Origin: an uncultured Bacilli bacterium
GTDB taxonomy: Bacteria; Bacillota_I; Bacilli_A; RF39; UBA660
Assembly: GCA_947630055.1 (NCBI GenBank)
Contig: CANRGA010000001.1
Location: forward strand, 10,195 to 74,194
Length of the DNA: 64,000 bases
Reading direction: 5' to 3'
The notes beneath the pieces were generated by a model. That model saw nothing but the letters and a program-made list of their open reading frames with translations. It was not told the DNA's origin and ran no database searches. Below are positions 45,444 to 61,715 of the stretch, piece after piece (positions within the stretch are counted from its first letter, which is position 1; the number at the start of each line of letters is the position of its first letter). The position numbers and the translations under genes were made by a program.

Positions 45444-45514
45444 GGGCTATTTTTAGCTCTTTTTTAATAAAATAGGAAAGTTATATAAAAAGTCAAATAA
45501 GCTGTTGCCAATCG

Positions 45515-45727
45515 TTTGTTTGTATGACACAATTATATTGTCCAGGAGGTAATGTTATGTTGATTAGTCGAGTGAAAAAAATATAAAATAAAAACAAGTA
45601 CGGCAGCGACTGTCGGAAATATGGCCTGTGGAGGAGTAAAATCCAAAGAAGCAGGAAAGATAAGCCGTGAGGCTTATCAAAGTGAAATGAAATAAATTTT
45701 AATTTATTGAATTTTACTTTTGTTCTA
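45515..45727 (+). mobile_element. 213-bp MITE-like deletion derivative of the IS605-family element at 59716..61061 (both ends retained, tnpB deleted)
   Basis: Left 75 nt match 59716..59790 (TTTGTTTG..CCAGGAGG..ATGTTAGTTGAT). Right about 135 nt match 60925..61061 (AAACAAGTACGGCAGCGACTGTCGGAAATATGG..GATAAGCCGTGAGGCTTATCAAAG..TTTTGTTCTA). Confidence 0.7.
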
Positions 45728-53290: not shown

Positions 53291-55861
53291 ATGTTTGTAC
53301 AAGAAGATGAATTAAAAAAGAAAAAATTAATGGCACTAGTTATTATGATGATAATAATGATTTTGTGCTTAATTCTAATTATCACTACTTTTACACTTGA
53401 ATTTTTTGGTAATGGTTATTTAGGTGGAAGTGGTAAAAATGCATTAAATGTCGATATAGATGGTGATGGTTTACCAGATGTTAATATTACTTATGGGAAA
53501 ATTAAAGACAAAGCAGTTTTTAATATAGATATTGATGGTGATGGTTATCCTGATAAGAATTTTATAAATCAAGATACAAATGGTGATGGCAAATGTGATT
53601 TAAACTGTGATGTTAATGATGATAATCACCCAGATTACAATATAGATTTAGATGGCGATGGAAAACCAGATATTAATATTGATACAAATGATAATGAAAT
53701 GCCAAACTTAAACATTGATACAGATGGCGATGGAAAGCCAGATGTTAATATTGATATAAATGGTGACGAAGAACCAGATATTAATATTGATGATAGTGTT
53801 GATAAAAAGACACCAATCGATACTGACGGTGATGATGAGTCAGATGTTGATGCTGAAACTGATGGAAAACCAGATAAAAATTTACTAAATCAAGATACTG
53901 ACAATGATGGAAAATGCGATTTAAATTGTGATGTTAATAATGATCATTATCCAGATTACAATATAGATATAAATGGCGATGGAAAGCCAGATGTTAATAT
54001 TGATACAAATAATAACAAAAAGCCAGATTTAAATGTTGATACAGATGGTAATGGTGTACCTGATACTAATATTGATTTTGATAAAGATGGCAAATGTGAT
54101 ATAAATTGTGATACTGATGTAGAAAAAAATATGTGGGTTGATACAGACCGTGATAAAGATCCGGATATTGAGGCTGAAACTGATGGAAAGCCAGATAAAA
54201 ATCCAACAAATCAAGATTTAAATAATGATGGAAAATGTGACTTAAATTGTGATGTTAATAAAGATGGTTATCCAGATGTTAATGTCGATATAGATGGCGA
54301 TGGAAAACCAGATGTTAATATTGACACAAATGATAACCAAAAGCCAGATTTAAATATTGATACGGATGGTAATGGTGTACCTGATACTAATATTGATATA
54401 GATAAAGATGGCAAATGTGATGTAAATTGCGATACTAATGTTGAAAAAAATATTGAAATTGATACAAATAGCGATAAAAAGCCAGATGTAGAAGCCGAAA
54501 CAGATGGAAAGCCAGATAGAAATCCAACAAATCAAGATACAAATGGTGATGATAAATGCGATTTAAATTGTGATATAGATAAAGATGGCTATCCAGATAT
54601 TAATATTGATGTTGATGGTGATGGCGATCCAGATTTAAATGTTGATACAAATGGTGATAATAAATGCGATTTAAATTGTGATACAGATAAAGATGGTAAG
54701 TGTGATTTAAATTGTGACACTAATAATGATAAACAATGTGATTTATTCTGTGATACAACTGGTGATGGTAAATGTGATACACATTGTGAGGTAACTTGTC
54801 CAATTAATTGTGATACAGACGGCGATGGTAAATGCGATTTAAATTGTGATACTAATAATAATAAACAATGTGATTTAAATTGTGATACCAATAAAGATGG
54901 TAGATGTGATTACAATTGTGATACAGATAAAGATGGCAAATGTGATGTAAATTGCGATACAGATAAAGATGGTAAGTGTGATTACAATTGTGATAATGAT
55001 AAAGATGGTAGATGCGATTTAAATTGTGATATTAATAAAGATAATAAGTGTGATTACAATTGTGACAATGATAAAGATGGTAAATGCGATTTAAATTGTG
55101 ATAATAACAAAGATGGTAAGTGTGATTTAAATTGCGATACTAATAATGACGATAAATGTGATTTAAATTGTGACACTAACAAAGATGATAAGTGTGATTT
55201 AAATTGTGATACTAATAATGATAATAAATGTGACTTAAATTGTGATAATAACAAAGATGGTGAATGTGATAAGTACTGTGATACCAATAATGATGGTAAG
55301 TGTGATAAATATTGTGATGATGACGATGATAATGTACCGAAAGCTTTATTAACAATGATGAAAGCAAAAGATGTTAATTTAATAGTAACTGCTGATGAAA
55401 TGACAAAAAATGCTGTAGGTCAAAAGAAATATGTAGAAATATCAAGTGCAAAATCTTATTCAACAGTTTCTCTTCGTTCATATGAAGATACAACTTCATG
55501 TAAATATGATGTAACCTTTAAAACAATAAGTAATACATTTACTAATCAATACTTAAATATGAACAATTTAAAACCATTAGGTAATCAATTAATATTAAGA
55601 TTGGAAGGATATCAAGATAATAATAATGTTGCAACGATACATACATATAATATAGATTTAATTAAAATAAAAGATAGTGATTATAAAATTGGTGAAGTTA
55701 CGATTTCTAATGATGCGGCTAGTAAAAATTTAACAGAACAACGATGGGGTATAACCTTATTATTTAGAAACTATAGTAGTTTTAATCAAATAAATAATGC
55801 TGGTAAGAGCGTTCATGGTGAATTGATATTCCAATCTAAAGGTTGTGTTAAAAATAAATAG
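53291..55861 (+). CDS. membrane-anchored repetitive Asp/Asn/Cys-rich protein: about 100-aa DxDxDG repeats followed by about 25 tandem 12-aa CDxNCDxxKDGK repeats (thrombospondin-type-3-like calcium-binding repeats) and a 180-aa C-terminal globular domain
   Basis: TM LMALVIMMIIMILCLILIITTF. Repeats read directly, e.g. CDLNCDTNKDGKCDVNCDTDKDGKCDYNCDNDKDGRCDLNCD. Confidence 0.7.
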   Translation: MFVQEDELKKKKLMALVIMMIIMILCLILIITTFTLEFFGNGYLGGSGKNALNVDIDGDGLPDVNITYGKIKDKAVFNIDIDGDGYPDKNFINQDTNGDGKCDLNCDVNDDNHPDYNIDLDGDGKPDINIDTNDNEMPNLNIDTDGDGKPDVNIDINGDEEPDINIDDSVDKKTPIDTDGDDESDVDAETDGKPDKNLLNQDTDNDGKCDLNCDVNNDHYPDYNIDINGDGKPDVNIDTNNNKKPDLNVDTDGNGVPDTNIDFDKDGKCDINCDTDVEKNMWVDTDRDKDPDIEAETDGKPDKNPTNQDLNNDGKCDLNCDVNKDGYPDVNVDIDGDGKPDVNIDTNDNQKPDLNIDTDGNGVPDTNIDIDKDGKCDVNCDTNVEKNIEIDTNSDKKPDVEAETDGKPDRNPTNQDTNGDDKCDLNCDIDKDGYPDINIDVDGDGDPDLNVDTNGDNKCDLNCDTDKDGKCDLNCDTNNDKQCDLFCDTTGDGKCDTHCEVTCPINCDTDGDGKCDLNCDTNNNKQCDLNCDTNKDGRCDYNCDTDKDGKCDVNCDTDKDGKCDYNCDNDKDGRCDLNCDINKDNKCDYNCDNDKDGKCDLNCDNNKDGKCDLNCDTNNDDKCDLNCDTNKDDKCDLNCDTNNDNKCDLNCDNNKDGECDKYCDTNNDGKCDKYCDDDDDNVPKALLTMMKAKDVNLIVTADEMTKNAVGQKKYVEISSAKSYSTVSLRSYEDTTSCKYDVTFKTISNTFTNQYLNMNNLKPLGNQLILRLEGYQDNNNVATIHTYNIDLIKIKDSDYKIGEVTISNDAASKNLTEQRWGITLLFRNYSSFNQINNAGKSVHGELIFQSKGCVKNK

Positions 55862-59403: not shown

Positions 59404-59432
59404 TTGTAAAATAAATAATAATGTAATATACT
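59404..59432 (+). promoter_or_regulatory. promoter TTGTAA-17-TATACT driving the short repeat RNA
   Basis: TTGTAA 59404..59409, 17-nt spacer, TATACT 59427..59432. Confidence 0.45.
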
Positions 59433-59435
59433 TTA

Positions 59436-59557
59436 AATACATTCAATGAATGTATTTATGTTTCTCGCTCTCGGATGGTGCGAGTAATAAATTATTCCGA
59501 TTGTCAAATGTTTCTCGCTATCGGATGGCGCGAGTAATAAATTATTCCGGTTGTAAA
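59436..59557 (+). ncRNA. candidate type III antitoxin (ToxI-like) RNA: 9-bp hairpin then two 50-nt direct repeats
   Basis: Hairpin AATACATTC-aat-GAATGTATT 59436..59456. Repeats 59458..59507 and 59508..59557 (ATGTTTCTCGCTCTCGGATGGTGCGAGTAATAAATTATTCCGATTGTCAA, 6 mismatches between copies). Own promoter and terminator. Confidence 0.45.
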
Positions 59558-59558
59558 A

Positions 59559-59600
59559 GGGATATATTTTAAGGGTATATCCCTTTTTTTGTTTTTTTTT
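59559..59600 (+). terminator. strong rho-independent terminator
   Basis: GGGATATA-ttttaaggg-TATATCCC followed by TTTTTTTGTTTTTTTTT. Confidence 0.8.
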
Positions 59601-59715
59601 AATAGAAAGCGAGGTGATAACAATAATTAAAGAAGGTTATTTATATCATATTAAAGAAGATTTTTTTATCTTATAGGAAAGTTCAAAAAATTGGTCAAAA
59701 ATACTTGATAATACA

Positions 59716-61061
59716 TTTGTTTGCGTAATATAATTATATTATCCAGGAGGCTATGGTTTATGTTAGTTGATCGTGCATACAAATTTAGAATGTATCCAAG
59801 TGTAAAACAAGAAGAATTAATAAATAAAACTATTGGTTGTTCAAGACTTGTTTATAATATAATGTTAAGTAAGAAGAAAGATAATTCTAAACTTACTAGT
59901 TTTGATATGATAAAAGAAATACCAGAGTTATATAATGAATACCCATTTTTAAAAGAAGTAGATAGTTGTTCATTAAGATGTGCAATATTTGATTTAGAAA
60001 ATGGTTTAAATAAATATTATAAAAAACAAGGAGGATATCCAAAGTTTAAGAAAAAAGGAATAAAAGATAGTTATAGAACAAATTATATAAAAAATACATA
60101 TAAAGATAAAAAATATGAAAATATAAAAATAGATTTAAAAAATAAAATAATAACATTACCAAAATTAAAAGAAGTAAAAATAAAAGGATATCGTCATTTA
60201 GAATATATAAAGGGAAGAATAATAAATGCTACTATTGAACATATTGCTAATAAATATTATGTATCAATATGTGTAGAAGAAGAAATGCCTAATGTTAAAA
60301 CTAATACTGCTTCAGTTATTGGAATAGATATGGGGATAAAGAGTTTAATAACCACAAGTGAAGGAATAAGTTATGGAAATCCAAATTACTTAAAAAAATA
60401 TGAAAGAAAGATAAAAGGATTACAAAAAGGATTATCAAGAAAAATAAAAGGAAGTAACAATTATAATAAATATAAAATAAAACTTCAAGAAACATATAGA
60501 AAGTTACAAAATGCAAGAAGAAAAACTAACGAAGAAATAGTAAGTAGAATAATTAAAGATAATGATATAATAGTAACTGAAGATTTAAACATAAATAGTA
60601 TGATAAAAGAAGCCAAAAAATCTCTAAGAAGAAATATAATTAATTCCACAATGAGTGACATAATAAGAAGACTCAAATATAAATGTAAGTGGTTGAATAA
60701 AAAATTAATACAAGTAAATAGATATTATGCCAGTAGTCAAATATGTAGTAGTTGTGGAAATAAAAGCAAAAAAATGAAGGATATAAAAATAAGAGAATAT
60801 AAATGTCCAAAATGTGGAATAGAGATAGAAAGAGATATAAATGCAAGTATAAATATAATGTATGAAGGAATAATAAGTTACTATAAAGAGAGATATCAAA
60901 ATTAAATAAATAAATAATAAAACAATAAACAAGTACGGCAGCGACTGTCGGAAATATGGTCTGTGGAGGAGTAAAATCCTAAGAAGCAGAAAAGATAAGC
61001 CATGAGGCTTATCAAAGCAAATGAAAATAAATGTTAGTTTATTGAATTTGCTTTTGTTCTA
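59716..61061 (+). mobile_element. IS200/IS605-family insertion sequence, TnpB-only (IS1341-like group)
   Basis: Ends defined by comparison with the MITE copy at 45515..45727. Contains the tnpB ORF. Confidence 0.8.
59760..60905 (+). CDS. tnpB: TnpB (OrfB) RNA-guided nuclease/transposase accessory protein
   Basis: ATG 59760 after CCAGGAGG. N-terminus MLVDRAYKFRMYP. RuvC-I IGIDMGIKS. RuvC-II IVTEDLNI. Zn ribbon CSSCGNKSKK..CPKCGIEIERDINASINI. Confidence 0.9.
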   Translation: MLVDRAYKFRMYPSVKQEELINKTIGCSRLVYNIMLSKKKDNSKLTSFDMIKEIPELYNEYPFLKEVDSCSLRCAIFDLENGLNKYYKKQGGYPKFKKKGIKDSYRTNYIKNTYKDKKYENIKIDLKNKIITLPKLKEVKIKGYRHLEYIKGRIINATIEHIANKYYVSICVEEEMPNVKTNTASVIGIDMGIKSLITTSEGISYGNPNYLKKYERKIKGLQKGLSRKIKGSNNYNKYKIKLQETYRKLQNARRKTNEEIVSRIIKDNDIIVTEDLNINSMIKEAKKSLRRNIINSTMSDIIRRLKYKCKWLNKKLIQVNRYYASSQICSSCGNKSKKMKDIKIREYKCPKCGIEIERDINASINIMYEGIISYYKERYQN

Positions 61062-61078
61062 GTTGCAAATGATAATAC
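60880..61078 (+). ncRNA. putative TnpB omega-RNA (right-end element RNA) with adjacent guide segment
   Basis: Structured RE (GATAAGCCATGAGGCTTATC hairpin, ACGGCAGCGACTGTCGG). By analogy with IS605 TnpB systems, 61062..61077 (GTTGCAAATGATAATA) would act as the guide. Confidence 0.4.
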
Positions 61079-61079
61079 A

Positions 61080-61484
61080 TTGCTTAAAAATTATTTTGAT
61101 AATACAAGACCAATGTATTTAGCATTAAAAAATAATGAAATGTTATGGCTAGTACCTTTAAGTTCTAAAATAAGTAAATATCAAAAAATCATAAATCAAA
61201 AGATAAAAAAATATGGTAAATGTAAGAGTATAATGATAAGAAAAATTGGTGGTAAATATCAGGCGGTGTTACTACAAAATGCTTTTCCTATTATAGAAAA
61301 ATATATAGATCATATACATATTCAAAAGAATATGCCAACAGTAGCTGTTAATACAGTCAAAAAAGAAATTAAAAGTAATTTAAAAGAATTATTAATATTA
61401 AAAAGTAAGGGATTTGATTTATTTTTTACTAATATTGATTATATTGAAAAAATAATGATGCAAGAATTAATTTGTAAAAAATGA
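61080..61484 (+). CDS. ToxN/AbiQ-family type III toxin (endoribonuclease)-like protein, 5' end uncertain or disrupted
   Basis: LWLVPLSSK versus ToxN YLAPLTSPK. AVLLQNAFPIIEKYIDHIHIQKNMPT versus ToxN LINLKFMIPIIEAEVSLLDLGNMPNT. ToxN sequence recalled from memory. Track start is a TTG. Confidence 0.5.
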   Translation: MLKNYFDNTRPMYLALKNNEMLWLVPLSSKISKYQKIINQKIKKYGKCKSIMIRKIGGKYQAVLLQNAFPIIEKYIDHIHIQKNMPTVAVNTVKKEIKSNLKELLILKSKGFDLFFTNIDYIEKIMMQELICKK

Positions 61485-61554: not shown

Positions 61555-61715
61555 TTTTATAATTGAATTGTTAGTGATGAAGGAATTTACAACTCTAGAG
61601 CTAAATCGTTTACTTACGTTACAAGTATAAAGTGTATGATAATTCATAAATTAAGGTGGTACCGCGGATTAATAATTCGTCCTTAAATCTTAATTTTTGA
61701 ATTTTTTTCTTTAAA
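61555..61715 (+). promoter_or_regulatory. T-box riboswitch leader (Tyr specifier UAC) controlling tyrS
   Basis: T-box consensus AAATTAAGGTGGTACCGCGG at 61649..61668. Specifier region GAAGGAATTTACAACTC. Downstream hairpin and T-run before RBS AAAGGAGAG. Confidence 0.7.

What the first reader, a model, noticed from the sequence alone, without database searches (positions are those of the whole stretch)
59404..61484. Putative type III toxin-antitoxin (ToxIN/AbiQ-like) locus with unusually long 50-nt antitoxin repeats, split from its toxin gene by an IS605-family TnpB element
The architecture reads as follows. A promoter (TTGTAA-17-TATACT) drives a 9-bp hairpin, two 50-nt direct repeats (59458..59507 and 59508..59557, each with a CTCGC..GCGAG stem) and a strong terminator (59559..59600). 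The IS follows 115 nt later (59716..61061). 18 nt beyond the IS is an ORF whose product matches ToxN/AbiQ in the LxxPLxSxK and FPIIE..NMPT blocks. The pre-IS 115 nt contain an RBS-like AGCGAGGTG and a short ORF, VITIIKEGYLYHIKEDFFIL, resembling the ToxN N-terminus (KFYTISSKYIEYLKEFDD). The reading frame is continuous across the IS if the IS is removed, but it is interrupted by a TAG. The 11-mer TTGATAATACA abuts the IS left end (59705..59715) and recurs after it (61070..61079 and 61096..61106). The repeat unit of 50 nt is longer than the 34-47 nt of described ToxI families, suggesting a new type III family. The IS insertion may have silenced or decoupled the toxin.
Basis: partly seen in the sequence, partly recalled or inferred. 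Interest (0 to 1): 0.8.

Follow-up and report, generated by a model that had tools for sequence, protein, structure and literature searches.

The report
IS-disrupted CptIN type III toxin-antitoxin locus
This is an ordinary member of the known CptIN family of RNA-antitoxin/protein-toxin pairs whose toxin gene has been cut in two by a TnpB-only IS200/IS605-type insertion sequence; the 50-nt RNA repeats are normal for its clade, not a sign of a new family.

Summary
The sequence features are real. There are two 50-nt tandem repeats, a strong terminator, a TnpB element and a toxin-like ORF.

The interpretation needs three corrections.
1. The toxin is CptN, not ToxN/AbiQ and not a new family. It hits NCBIfam NF047359 above cutoff, and its closest solved structure is 4RMO.
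2. The 50-nt unit is not unusual. In 74 of 80 related loci, cptN is preceded by at least two homologous units spaced 48-50 nt apart, with 50 the commonest spacing. Described type III repeats span 31-62 nt. Covariation shows an H-type pseudoknot like CptI.
3. An IS-free syntenic locus in a sister genome shows that the insert is 59670..61060, not 59716..61061. It sits 3' of TTTAT with no target duplication, inside codon 19 of cptN.

It follows that the TAG and the "continuation" of the short ORF are IS left-end sequence. Removing the IS restores an uninterrupted 159-aa CptN that covers the whole family profile.

The most likely state is an orphan cptI antitoxin array beside an inactivated toxin gene. 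The same insertion is seen in an independent assembly. This is a new member of a known kind, of low to moderate interest.

The parts
59404..59432 (+). cptI promoter: -35 TTGTAA (59404-59409), 17-nt spacer, -10 TATACT (59427-59432)
   Evidence: Consensus scan gives 9/12. It lies at the same position relative to the first repeat unit as the conserved TTGAC(T/A)-17-TATA(T/C)T in about 60 distinct related loci.
59434..59458 (+). Leader hairpin (12-bp perfect palindrome TAAATACATTCA/TGAATGTATTTA with a 1-nt gap). It is probably the 5' stem-loop of the antitoxin precursor.
   Evidence: (I23) and the fold. A hairpin with different sequences sits in the same place in relatives: 66 distinct leaders, median z -2.8.
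59458..59507 (+). cptI antitoxin unit 1 (50 nt). S1 is CUCGC/GCGAG and S2 is UCGGA/UCCGA, forming an H-type pseudoknot with an A-rich L2.
   Evidence: TRF; covariance model R1 scores 74.6 bits, E 2e-17; covariation.
59508..59557 (+). cptI antitoxin unit 2 (50 nt, 92% identical to unit 1)
   Evidence: TRF; R1 scores 69.4 bits, E 5e-16.
59555..59600 (+). Rho-independent terminator between the antitoxin array and the toxin gene (15-pair stem 59555-59587, then a T-run)
   Evidence: An equivalent terminator is present in the related loci.
59614..59669 (+). cptN 5' fragment: 18 codons plus 2 nt (VITIIKEGYLYHIKEDFF-I...), preceded by the SD-like GCGAGG. The start codon is uncertain: GTG at 59614 or a non-canonical ATA/ATT. 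This clade has no ATG here.
   Evidence: Collinear with the intact gene in L001. Contains the family-invariant G, Y, K and F residues. Start-region comparison.
59665..59669 (+). TTTAT, the motif immediately 5' of the insertion (the TAM / TnpA cleavage-site equivalent)
   Evidence: Empty site in L001. The same TTTAT flanks the copies in L087, L090, L091/92 and L093; L088 has TTAGT and the mini copy has TTAAT.
59670..61060 (+). IS200/IS605-family, TnpB-only insertion sequence (1391 bp). There is no target duplication and the boundary carries a 1-nt (T) ambiguity.
   Evidence: Empty-site comparison with L001. Copies at other sites in L087, L088, L090-L093 are 87-97% identical.
59670..59759 (+). 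IS left end.
   Evidence: LE alignments; promoter scan 11/12.
59760..60905 (+). tnpB (381 aa), an RNA-guided nuclease gene with RuvC-like IGIDMG / TEDLN / RDINAS motifs and a CxxC...CxxC zinc ribbon
   Evidence: Pfam PF12323, PF01385 and PF07282. NCBIfam guided_TnpB NF040570 scores 281 bits against a cutoff of 100; IS200_TnpB NF038281 gives E 5e-103.
60906..61060 (+). IS right end, the omega-RNA scaffold-like structured region, ending ...TTTTGTTCT
   Evidence: Conserved in all copies while the flanks diverge immediately after TTGTTCT. An 89% identical copy lies at 45585-45714. Fold z-score is -5.1.
61061..61080 (+). Right flank AGTTGCAAATGATAATACAT, the sequence that the element's omega-RNA guide would carry (inferred). 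Together with TTTAT it reconstitutes the uninterrupted cptN target.
   Evidence: Inference from the known TnpB/omega-RNA architecture. The flank is identical in the IS-free L001.
61061..61484 (+). cptN 3' fragment (codons 19-159 plus stop). The mechanical ORF is 61080-61484, and the gene caller in L086 starts at the ATG at 61113.
   Evidence: NF047359 CptIN at E 5.9e-33, covering profile 26-150/150. Joined to 59614-59669 it gives a 159-aa protein covering profile 1-150/150 at 132.8 bits.

Best explanation
The locus is a chromosomal CptIN-family type III toxin-antitoxin module sitting between yebC and the T-box/tyrS gene. A sigma-70-type promoter transcribes a short leader hairpin, then two 50-nt cptI units, each folding as an H-type pseudoknot. 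Most transcripts then stop at a strong intrinsic terminator. In intact relatives, read-through (or an internal promoter) gives low expression of CptN. CptN is an endoribonuclease of the MazF/Kid-like fold that cuts the precursor between units, probably at the ...A^AUGUU junction. It is held inactive by the processed pseudoknots.

In this genome a TnpB-only IS200/IS605 element (59670-61060) has inserted 3' of TTTAT, inside codon 19 of cptN. The insertion separates the first beta-strand and its invariant residues, together with the ribosome-binding site, from the remaining 141 codons. The toxin is therefore inactivated and the cptI array is left as an orphan antitoxin.

Basis of each step:
- Shown here: homology, architecture, covariation, and the exact insertion point.
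- Inferred from the characterised E. rectale CptIN: RNase activity, processing and neutralisation.
- Inferred from sequence: loss of toxin function.
For: Toxin family:
- NCBIfam CptIN equivalog is above cutoff for both the fragment and the repaired protein.
- phmmer against PDB 4RMO_A CptN gives E 7.8e-15 over the full length.
- The AF2 model of the 93%-identical intact homologue has 4RMO_A as its top hit (TM 0.74/0.79), followed by MazF/CcdB.

Antitoxin:
- 74 of 80 related loci carry at least two homologous units directly upstream on the same strand; 72 carry exactly two. Spacings are 48, 49 or 50 nt.
- All 178 covariance-model hits in 521 kb are on the cptN strand.
- Covariation on an unbiased MAFFT alignment of 59 distinct units supports stem 1 (UA 46 / CG 13) and the pseudoknot stem 2 (CG 33/UA 18; CG 42/UA 16; GC 48/AU 11; AU 41/GC 18). 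No shuffle out of 500 reached the observed score, and all slid registers were far lower.
- The layout (5' A[A/U]GUUU tail, 5-bp S1, 5-bp S2, A-rich L2, 3' tail ending in A) parallels the 45-nt CptI_Er.
- Promoter, leader hairpin, terminator and RBS are all conserved in position.

Insertion:
- The IS-free syntenic locus L001/L007 and also L006 (patatin, yebC, repeats, cptN, T-box, tyrS) define the junctions to the base.
- The same insertion with 100% identical flanks occurs in an independent assembly, L086.
- The repaired ORF has no stop or frameshift.
Against: - No expression or activity data exist for this clade.
- The two CptIN systems tested in the literature were toxic and rescued in E. 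coli, but showed no phage defence.
- The start codon of cptN in this lineage is non-canonical or overlaps the SD, so even the intact alleles may be poorly translated.
- A 123-134-aa N-terminally truncated product could in principle be made from transcripts reading out of the IS, and its inactivity is inferred, not shown.
- The residue aligned with Tyr104 of CptN_Er is His in this clade, and the Ser-Ser-Arg triad reads Ser-Ser-Lys. Catalytic details may therefore differ.
Confidence: 0.88

Rival explanations
1. One reading: this is a new type III family, related to ToxIN/AbiQ, defined by unusually long 50-nt antitoxin repeats.
For: - There is a weak Pfam ToxN hit (E 0.015).
- 50 nt is 2 nt above the 40-48 range reported for 33 cptIN loci in 2012.
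- No Rfam family matches the repeats.
Against: - The NCBIfam CptIN equivalog is above cutoff.
- There is full-length sequence and fold similarity to CptN 4RMO.
- Units of 48-50 nt are the norm in hundreds of related gut-Bacilli loci.
- Described type III repeats span 31-62 nt.
- The pseudoknot design is the same as CptI_Er.
Confidence: 0.03
2. The module is still an active TA pair. A truncated CptN (from TTG 61080 or ATG 61113) would be expressed from transcripts leaving the IS and would remain toxic, held in check by cptI.
For: - The 3' fragment is an intact ORF carrying the PLSSK and QNAFP..EKYIDH.H blocks.
- tnpB/omega-RNA transcription runs in the same direction towards it.
- Blower 2012 notes short 'partial' CptN ORFs of unknown activity next to full repeat arrays.
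Against: - The fragment lacks the first beta-strand and helix (E17-21 and H23-29 of the model).
- It also lacks four family-invariant residues, G16, Y19, K22 and F26.
- No SD precedes 61080 or 61113.
- An in-frame stop at 61035 lies just upstream.
Confidence: 0.06
3. The orphan cptI array is kept because it is useful on its own. It could act as anti-addiction immunity against incoming cptIN-bearing elements, or as one state of a reversible switch. IS200/IS605 excision is seamless and would restore cptN, while TnpB guided by the right flank would re-cut the restored TTTAT-AGTTGCAAATG... allele.
For: - The promoter, both units and the terminator are undamaged, and the units are 92-100% identical to those of IS-free sister lineages.
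- Both gene halves are free of secondary lesions.
- tnpB is intact and a structured right end is present.
- Truncated cptN next to a full array recurs in relatives.
Against: - Lack of decay is equally explained by a recent insertion.
- No TnpA is present in the 64-kb window.
- CptI antitoxins are reported to be highly cognate-specific, which limits any cross-immunity.
- The syn/nonsyn pattern of cptN does not differ between the disrupted and intact lineages.
Confidence: 0.12
4. The IS-in-toxin arrangement is an assembly chimera.
For: IS copies are multi-copy and often break or mis-join metagenome assemblies. In L086 the IS differs at 9 positions while the flanks are identical.
Against: Both junctions are reproduced in an independent assembly from another sample (L086). 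The junctions also obey the element's rules at other sites: insertion 3' of TTTAT, an end at TTGTTCT, and no duplication.
Confidence: 0.01

Closest known systems
CptIN of Eubacterium rectale (PDB 4RMO; Blower 2012, Rao 2015)
   Same: - Homologous toxin (E 7.8e-15; TM 0.74-0.79; PLSS[K/R]..KY motif).
- About two tandem repeats, then a terminator, then the toxin, on the chromosome.
- The RNA unit is an H-type pseudoknot with 5-bp S1 and S2, an A-rich L2 and single-stranded A[A/U]GUUU 5' and ...A 3' tails.
   Different: - The unit is 50 nt against 45 nt, with a longer L2 and L1.
- Protein identity is about 28%.
- The triad reads Ser-Ser-Lys rather than Ser-Ser-Arg, and His replaces the residue aligned with Tyr104.
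- There is a conserved leader hairpin.
- In the window the toxin gene is split by an IS.
ToxIN (P. atrosepticum, B. thuringiensis) and AbiQ
   Same: The general type III logic is shared: a repeat-encoded pseudoknot RNA processed by and inhibiting an endoribonuclease, with a terminator setting the ratio of the two.
   Different: It is a different toxin family (PF13958 below threshold). Those systems have 34-36-nt units in 2.8-5.5 copies and form heterohexamers. Membership was not met here.
Partial or short CptN loci listed by Blower et al. 2012 (e.g. Bryantella formatexigens, Lachnospiraceae 9_1_43BFAA)
   Same: A full antitoxin array and terminator sit next to a toxin gene that is no longer full length.
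   Different: In those cases the cause was not reported. Here the cause is an identifiable, precisely delimited IS insertion, and both halves are preserved.
TnpB-only IS200/IS605 elements (IS1341-like group; ISDra2 TnpB/omega-RNA paradigm)
   Same: - TnpB with HTH, RuvC and Zn-ribbon domains.
- Insertion 3' of a short T-rich pentamer with no target duplication.
- A structured, conserved 3' end abutting a variable flank.
- A tnpB-less miniature derivative in the same genome.
   Different: There is no tnpA in the element or the window. The TAM-like motif is TTTAT rather than TTGAT. Guide and TAM function are inferred, not tested.

Membership tests
CptIN (type III TA) | Toxin belongs to the CptN protein family | tested here: met
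   NF047359 equivalog scores 113.8 bits (fragment) and 132.8 bits (repaired, profile 1-150/150) against a cutoff of 90. 4RMO_A gives E 7.8e-15. Foldseek top hit is 4RMO_A with TM 0.74/0.79.
CptIN (type III TA) | Tandem direct repeats immediately upstream of the toxin gene on the same strand | tested here: met
   2.0 copies of 50 nt. Homologous arrays precede cptN in 74/80 related loci.
CptIN (type III TA) | Rho-independent terminator between repeats and toxin gene | tested here: met
   15-pair stem plus T-run at 59555-59600. Conserved in relatives.
CptIN (type III TA) | Each repeat folds as an H-type pseudoknot | tested here: met
   Compensatory changes occur in 4 of 5 S2 pairs and in S1 pair 8-31 across 59 distinct units. 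No shuffle out of 500 reached the observed score, and slid registers collapse. This is in silico only.
CptIN (type III TA) | Toxin is an endoribonuclease that processes the repeats and is neutralised by the processed RNA (kill/rescue) | not testable with these tools
   Known for the E. rectale, R. torques and C. catus systems. Not known for this clade.
CptIN (type III TA) | Intact, translatable toxin ORF | tested here: not met
   cptN is split inside codon 19 by a 1391-bp IS. It is intact in sister lineages L001/L007 and L006. The window therefore holds a disrupted member.
ToxIN / AbiQ (PF13958) | Toxin matches the ToxN/AbiQ profile above threshold | tested here: not met
   PF13958 scores 16 bits (fragment) and 15.1 bits (repaired) against a cutoff of 25. 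PADLOC has no hit. Rfam ToxI was not found.
IS200/IS605 family (TnpB-only) | TnpB protein with HTH, RuvC-like and zinc-ribbon domains | tested here: met
   PF12323, PF01385 and PF07282. NF040570 scores 281 bits against a cutoff of 100. NF038281 scores 344.9 bits, below its 'exception' cutoff of 425.
IS200/IS605 family (TnpB-only) | Insertion 3' of a short specific motif, without target-site duplication | tested here: met
   The empty site is TTTAT|AGTTGC. TTTAT flanks 5 of 7 independent sites; the others are TTAGT and TTAAT.
IS200/IS605 family (TnpB-only) | Y1 transposase TnpA | tested here: not met
   There is no tnpA in the element and no tblastn hit in the window. The element would need TnpA in trans, as in the IS1341-type group.
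IS200/IS605 family (TnpB-only) | Omega-RNA overlapping the 3' end, with its guide derived from the right flank | tested here: inconclusive
   There is a conserved structured right end (z -5.1), and the flanks diverge exactly after TTGTTCT. No Rfam family was hit and there are no expression data.

The most novel reading that the evidence does not exclude
The 48-50-nt gut-Bacilli clade may be a distinct CptIN subclass. Its arrays almost always hold exactly two units, and the two units usually carry different, internally compensated stem-2 helices. This would suggest either that each 2:2 complex takes one of each unit, or that orthogonal helices are selected to stop neighbouring pseudoknots from mispairing. 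In this genome the IS605-type insertion could act as a reversible gate on the toxin: seamless excision would restore cptN, and the element's own TnpB/omega-RNA is programmed against the restored allele.
Probability: 0.12. Interest if true: 0.5.

Novelty: new member of a known kind. Interest (0 to 1): 0.25.

Why it matters
Its value is mainly for annotation. It shows that a large, uncharacterised clade of gut Bacilli/RF39-like MAGs carries CptIN loci with 48-50-nt pseudoknot antitoxins. There were 408 hits among species representatives. No Rfam family matches these RNAs, so they go unannotated.

The window offers a clean natural example of a type III toxin knocked out by an IS while its RNA antitoxin survives. 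The ancestral empty site is available for comparison. That makes a simple experimental pair, repaired against disrupted allele, for testing toxicity, RNA processing and TnpB targeting. It does not reveal a new kind of system.

Tried and rejected
- **PADLOC and Pfam ToxN profiles.** There was no hit or only a sub-threshold hit. The ToxIN/AbiQ assignment was therefore dropped.
- **Rfam.** It found only a T-box leader in the region and a tRNA elsewhere. There was no ToxI-like or omega-RNA family.
- **The 382-aa gene next to a Y1 TnpA in L001.** I first took it for a TnpB copy, but it is unrelated.
- **IS left end at 59716.** I first accepted this from a comparison with the mini copy, but the empty site and more copies moved it to 59670.
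- **The 11-mer as a target duplication or insertion footprint.** Rejected. One copy is inside the IS and the other two are ancestral coding sequence.
- **The repeated 12-mer as a general left-end/flank match.** Rejected as a general rule. The mini copy and five other copies show no such match. The single case here remains unexplained.
- **TRF alone.** It detected arrays in only 41/80 relatives because the two units of an array often differ. nhmmer and the covariance model were needed.
- **Relaxed selection on the disrupted gene.** A syn/nonsyn count gave no signal: 12/10 in the disrupted lineage against 12/8 between the two intact lineages.
Full report
**1. What is in the sequence**

- Tandem Repeats Finder reports one array at 59458-59558, period 50, 2.0 copies, 92% matches, score 174. 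The two units are 59458-59507 and 59508-59557.
- A terminator-like hairpin with a 15-pair stem (59555-59587) is followed by a long T-run. Three terminator-like sites were found in 2.4 kb, against 0.3 expected.
- A 394-codon ORF in the mechanical listing (59721-60905) runs from its ATG at 59760 to 60905 and gives a 381-aa TnpB. It has Pfam HTH_OrfB_IS605, OrfB_IS605 and Cas12f1-like_TNB domains. NCBIfam guided_TnpB scores 281 bits against a cutoff of 100.
- A 134-codon ORF lies at 61080-61484.
- The window has 26.5% G+C. Its closest relatives are gut metagenome-assembled genomes labelled 'uncultured Bacilli bacterium'.

**2. The toxin is CptN, a known family**

- The 134-aa ORF scores only 16 bits (E 0.015) on Pfam ToxN_toxin, below the 25-bit cutoff. 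It has no PADLOC hit.
- It scores 113.8 bits (E 5.9e-33, cutoff 90) on the NCBIfam equivalog NF047359, 'type III toxin-antitoxin system CptIN family toxin'. The match covers profile positions 26-150 of 150, so about 25 N-terminal residues are missing.
- A 93%-identical intact homologue (P0001) matches the crystallised CptN of Eubacterium rectale (4RMO_A) over its full length, E 7.8e-15.
- An AlphaFold model of P0001 (pLDDT 75, pTM 0.72) has 4RMO_A as its best PDB match (TM 0.74/0.79, 28% identity). MazF and CcdB follow, the fold class known for type III toxins.

**3. The empty site fixes the insertion to the base**

P0001 is encoded in GCA_947591505.1 in the same gene order as the window: patatin, yebC, repeats, cptN, T-box leader, tyrS. 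It carries no insertion (L001/L007). A second sister lineage, L006, is the same. The flanks are 92-95% identical to the window.
- The IS-free sequence reads ...GAAGATTTTTTTAT|AGTTGCAAATGATAATACATTG...
- In the window, 1391 bp (59670-61060) lie between the T at 59669 and the A at 61061. A one-base (T) ambiguity remains, and there is no target duplication.
- Consequently the TAG at 59674-59676, and the peptide '...ESSKNWSKILDNT' that seemed to continue the short ORF, are IS left-end sequence.
- Joining 59614-59669 to 61061-61484 gives an uninterrupted 159-aa protein, VITIIKEGYLYHIKEDFFIVANDNT.... It covers the whole CptIN profile (1-150/150, 132.8 bits).
- The IS sits inside codon 19. It separates the SD-like sequence, the first beta-strand and half of the first helix (E17-21 and H23-29 in the model of P0001) from the rest. 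The separated piece also carries four family-invariant residues (G16, Y19, K22, F26 in P0001 numbering).
- The same insertion, with 100% identical flanks, is present in an independent assembly from another sample (L086). It is therefore not an assembly artefact.

**4. The insertion sequence**

- Six further copies were recovered. L087, L088/L089, L090, L091/L092 and L093 have TnpB 87-98% identical. There is also a 258-bp tnpB-less miniature in the window itself, at 45469-45726.
- All copies begin three bases before ATAGGAAAGTT and end at TTTTGTTCT. Their flanks are unrelated beyond those points.
- The five bases 5' of the left end are TTTAT at five sites, TTAGT at one and TTAAT at the miniature.
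- The last ~155 nt are the most conserved part and fold well (z -5.1).
- These are the hallmarks of a TnpB-only IS200/IS605 element: a TAM-like motif on the left, and an omega-RNA scaffold whose guide would be the right flank, here AGTTGCAAATGATAAT.... That last point is an inference from the ISDra2 paradigm (own knowledge).
- No Y1 transposase is encoded in the element or anywhere in the window.

**5. The repeats are a cptI antitoxin of ordinary length for their clade**

- A scan of one genome per species found 408 cptN relatives. The best 80 loci were fetched.
- TRF found 48-51-nt arrays upstream of 40 of them, plus one array called at a 98-nt period.
- nhmmer with the unit alignment found at least two units directly upstream, on the same strand, in 74 of 80 loci, and exactly two in 72. 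Most exceptions lie at contig ends. A covariance model (R1) built on the same alignment gave 178 hits, all on the cptN strand.
- Start-to-start spacings were 48 (13 cases), 49 (20) and 50 (37).
- The window has only the two hits at 59458 and 59508.
- Blower et al. 2012 give repeat lengths of 31-62 nt for toxIN, 40-48 for cptIN (n = 33) and 39-57 for tenpIN, with 1.9-3.4 copies for cptIN. So 50 nt is 2 nt beyond an old, small cptIN sample and well inside the type III range.

**6. The RNA structure**

The analysis used a MAFFT alignment of 59 distinct units (A2). The proposed structure is stem 1 (columns 7-11 with 25-32) plus a pseudoknotted stem 2 (columns 14-18 with 44-48).
- The structure is strongly supported.
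- Pair 8-31 is UA in 46 units and CG in 13.
- The stem-2 pairs are CG 33/UA 18, CG 42/UA 16, GC 48/AU 11 and AU 41/GC 18, with 0-5 unpaired cells each.
- None of 500 shuffles reached the observed covariation score, and sliding the partners by 1-3 columns collapses the pairing.
- In the window, unit 1 has CUCGC/GCGAG and UCGGA/UCCGA.
- The order is a 5' tail AUGUUU, S1, S2, an A-rich loop UAAUAAAUUAU, and a 3' tail ending in A. This mirrors the 45-nt CptI of E. rectale (AAGUUU-ACCAC-U-GACCG-...-GUGGU-AUAUAAAU-GGUC-GGGUUGA). That RNA is an H-type pseudoknot with an A-minor L2, cut after A45.
- The extra five nucleotides are mostly in L2 and L1 (by inspection).

**7. Regulatory parts**

- However, aligning the 62 nt upstream of the first unit in about 60 distinct loci shows a conserved TTGAC(T/A)-17-TATA(T/C)T at the same distance.
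- That promoter is followed by a hairpin of variable sequence. In 66 distinct leaders, 97% have at least 5 bp and the median z is -2.8. The window's 12-bp palindrome (59434-59458) is that hairpin.
- Downstream, relatives share the terminator, a GGAG-type SD and ATG-K-[VI]-x-T-G-Y.
- The window lineage lacks the ATG. The only canonical in-frame start is GTG 59614, which overlaps the SD-like GCGAGG. The true start is therefore uncertain.

**8. Most likely mechanism and state**

By homology with the tested CptIN systems, cptI is transcribed abundantly and terminated. CptN made by read-through cleaves the precursor between units and is trapped by the pseudoknots. In this genome the toxin gene is interrupted, so the array is an orphan antitoxin.
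- Both gene halves lack secondary lesions.
- The synonymous-only/non-synonymous codon counts are 12/10 against L001. They are 12/8 between the two intact lineages, so the two do not differ.
- This fits a recent insertion.
- Whether the array is retained for a reason cannot be decided from sequence. Possible reasons are anti-addiction, or a reversible switch through seamless excision.

**9. The repeated 10-mer**

- TGATAATACA occurs three times in 64 kb, all in this locus (0.72 expected per window).
- Two copies are ancestral coding sequence of cptN and are also present in L001.
- The third lies inside the IS left end, in the -35-like hexamer of a TTGATA-18-TATAAT site upstream of tnpB (11/12).
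- All other copies of the IS have TTGT(A/G)AATACA there. Only the copy in cptN carries the adjacent TA-to-AT change that makes a perfect 12-mer with the flank.
- It is not a target duplication. Chance, promoter improvement or short-patch conversion remain open.

**10. Verdict**

The locus is a disrupted member of the known CptIN family, not a new family. The 50-nt unit is typical for its clade, and the IS boundary and 'TAG' claims were wrong. Interest is low to moderate.

Noticed in passing
window 45469-45726: A 258-bp miniature, tnpB-less derivative of the same IS. It keeps about 95 nt of the left end, including the first 9 codons of tnpB, fused to the omega-RNA-like right end (89% identical to 60920-61049). 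It lies just after nusG, with TTAAT on its left flank.
   Followed up: partly
window 59706-59717 vs 61070-81 and 61097-61106: The only three TGATAATACA sites in the window cluster here. The one inside the IS left end differs from all other IS copies (TTGTAAATACA) by an adjacent TA-to-AT change. That change makes a perfect 12-mer with the cptN flank 9 nt past the right end. This is unexplained; chance, a better -35, or short-patch conversion are all possible.
   Followed up: partly
related loci L008-L085 (e.g. L010 1060-1156, L042 2822-2919, L024 2814-2912): Within one array the two cptI units usually carry different stem-2 helices, each internally compensated. Both units are 5/5 paired in cis in 43 of 50 distinct arrays, fully paired in trans in only 9, and have identical stem 2 in 8. 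The literature describes cptI repeats as nearly identical. The pattern may reflect selection against mispairing between neighbouring pseudoknots. In the window the two units share the same core.
   Followed up: partly
window 61568-61687: A T-box leader lies upstream of tyrS. It scores 64 bits, below the Rfam gathering score of 93, but with E 6.8e-13. Most of the stem I region is missing: 76 model positions are replaced by 7 nt.
   Followed up: no
L043/L044/L048/L052/L053 about 2288-2500; L030 3600-3795; L077 3580-3677; L085 1262-1363: Several relatives carry two cptIN loci in tandem. In the L043 group a complete two-unit array and terminator are followed by a cptN remnant lacking about the first 90 codons. 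Toxin loss with antitoxin retention therefore recurs by other routes.
   Followed up: no
related loci, between terminator and RBS of cptN: Many relatives have an extended -10-like motif (T[AG]TG-n-TA[TA]A[AC]T) between the terminator and the SD, suggesting a separate weak toxin promoter. The window lineage lacks both this motif and the ATG start codon. L014 also has ATA at the start position.
   Followed up: no
L086 1411-2801 vs window 59670-61060: In the independent assembly with the same insertion, 2755 nt of flank are 100% identical, but the IS differs at 9 positions. Possible causes are collapse of several IS copies in the metagenome assembly or conversion among copies.
   Followed up: no
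window 53447-55417 and 448-2065: There are long arrays of 36-nt-period repeats encoding Asp/Gly-rich (D.DGDG..PD.N-like) units, with superimposed 321-nt repeats. A separate set of 1014-nt-spaced repeats lies near the start of the window.
   Followed up: no
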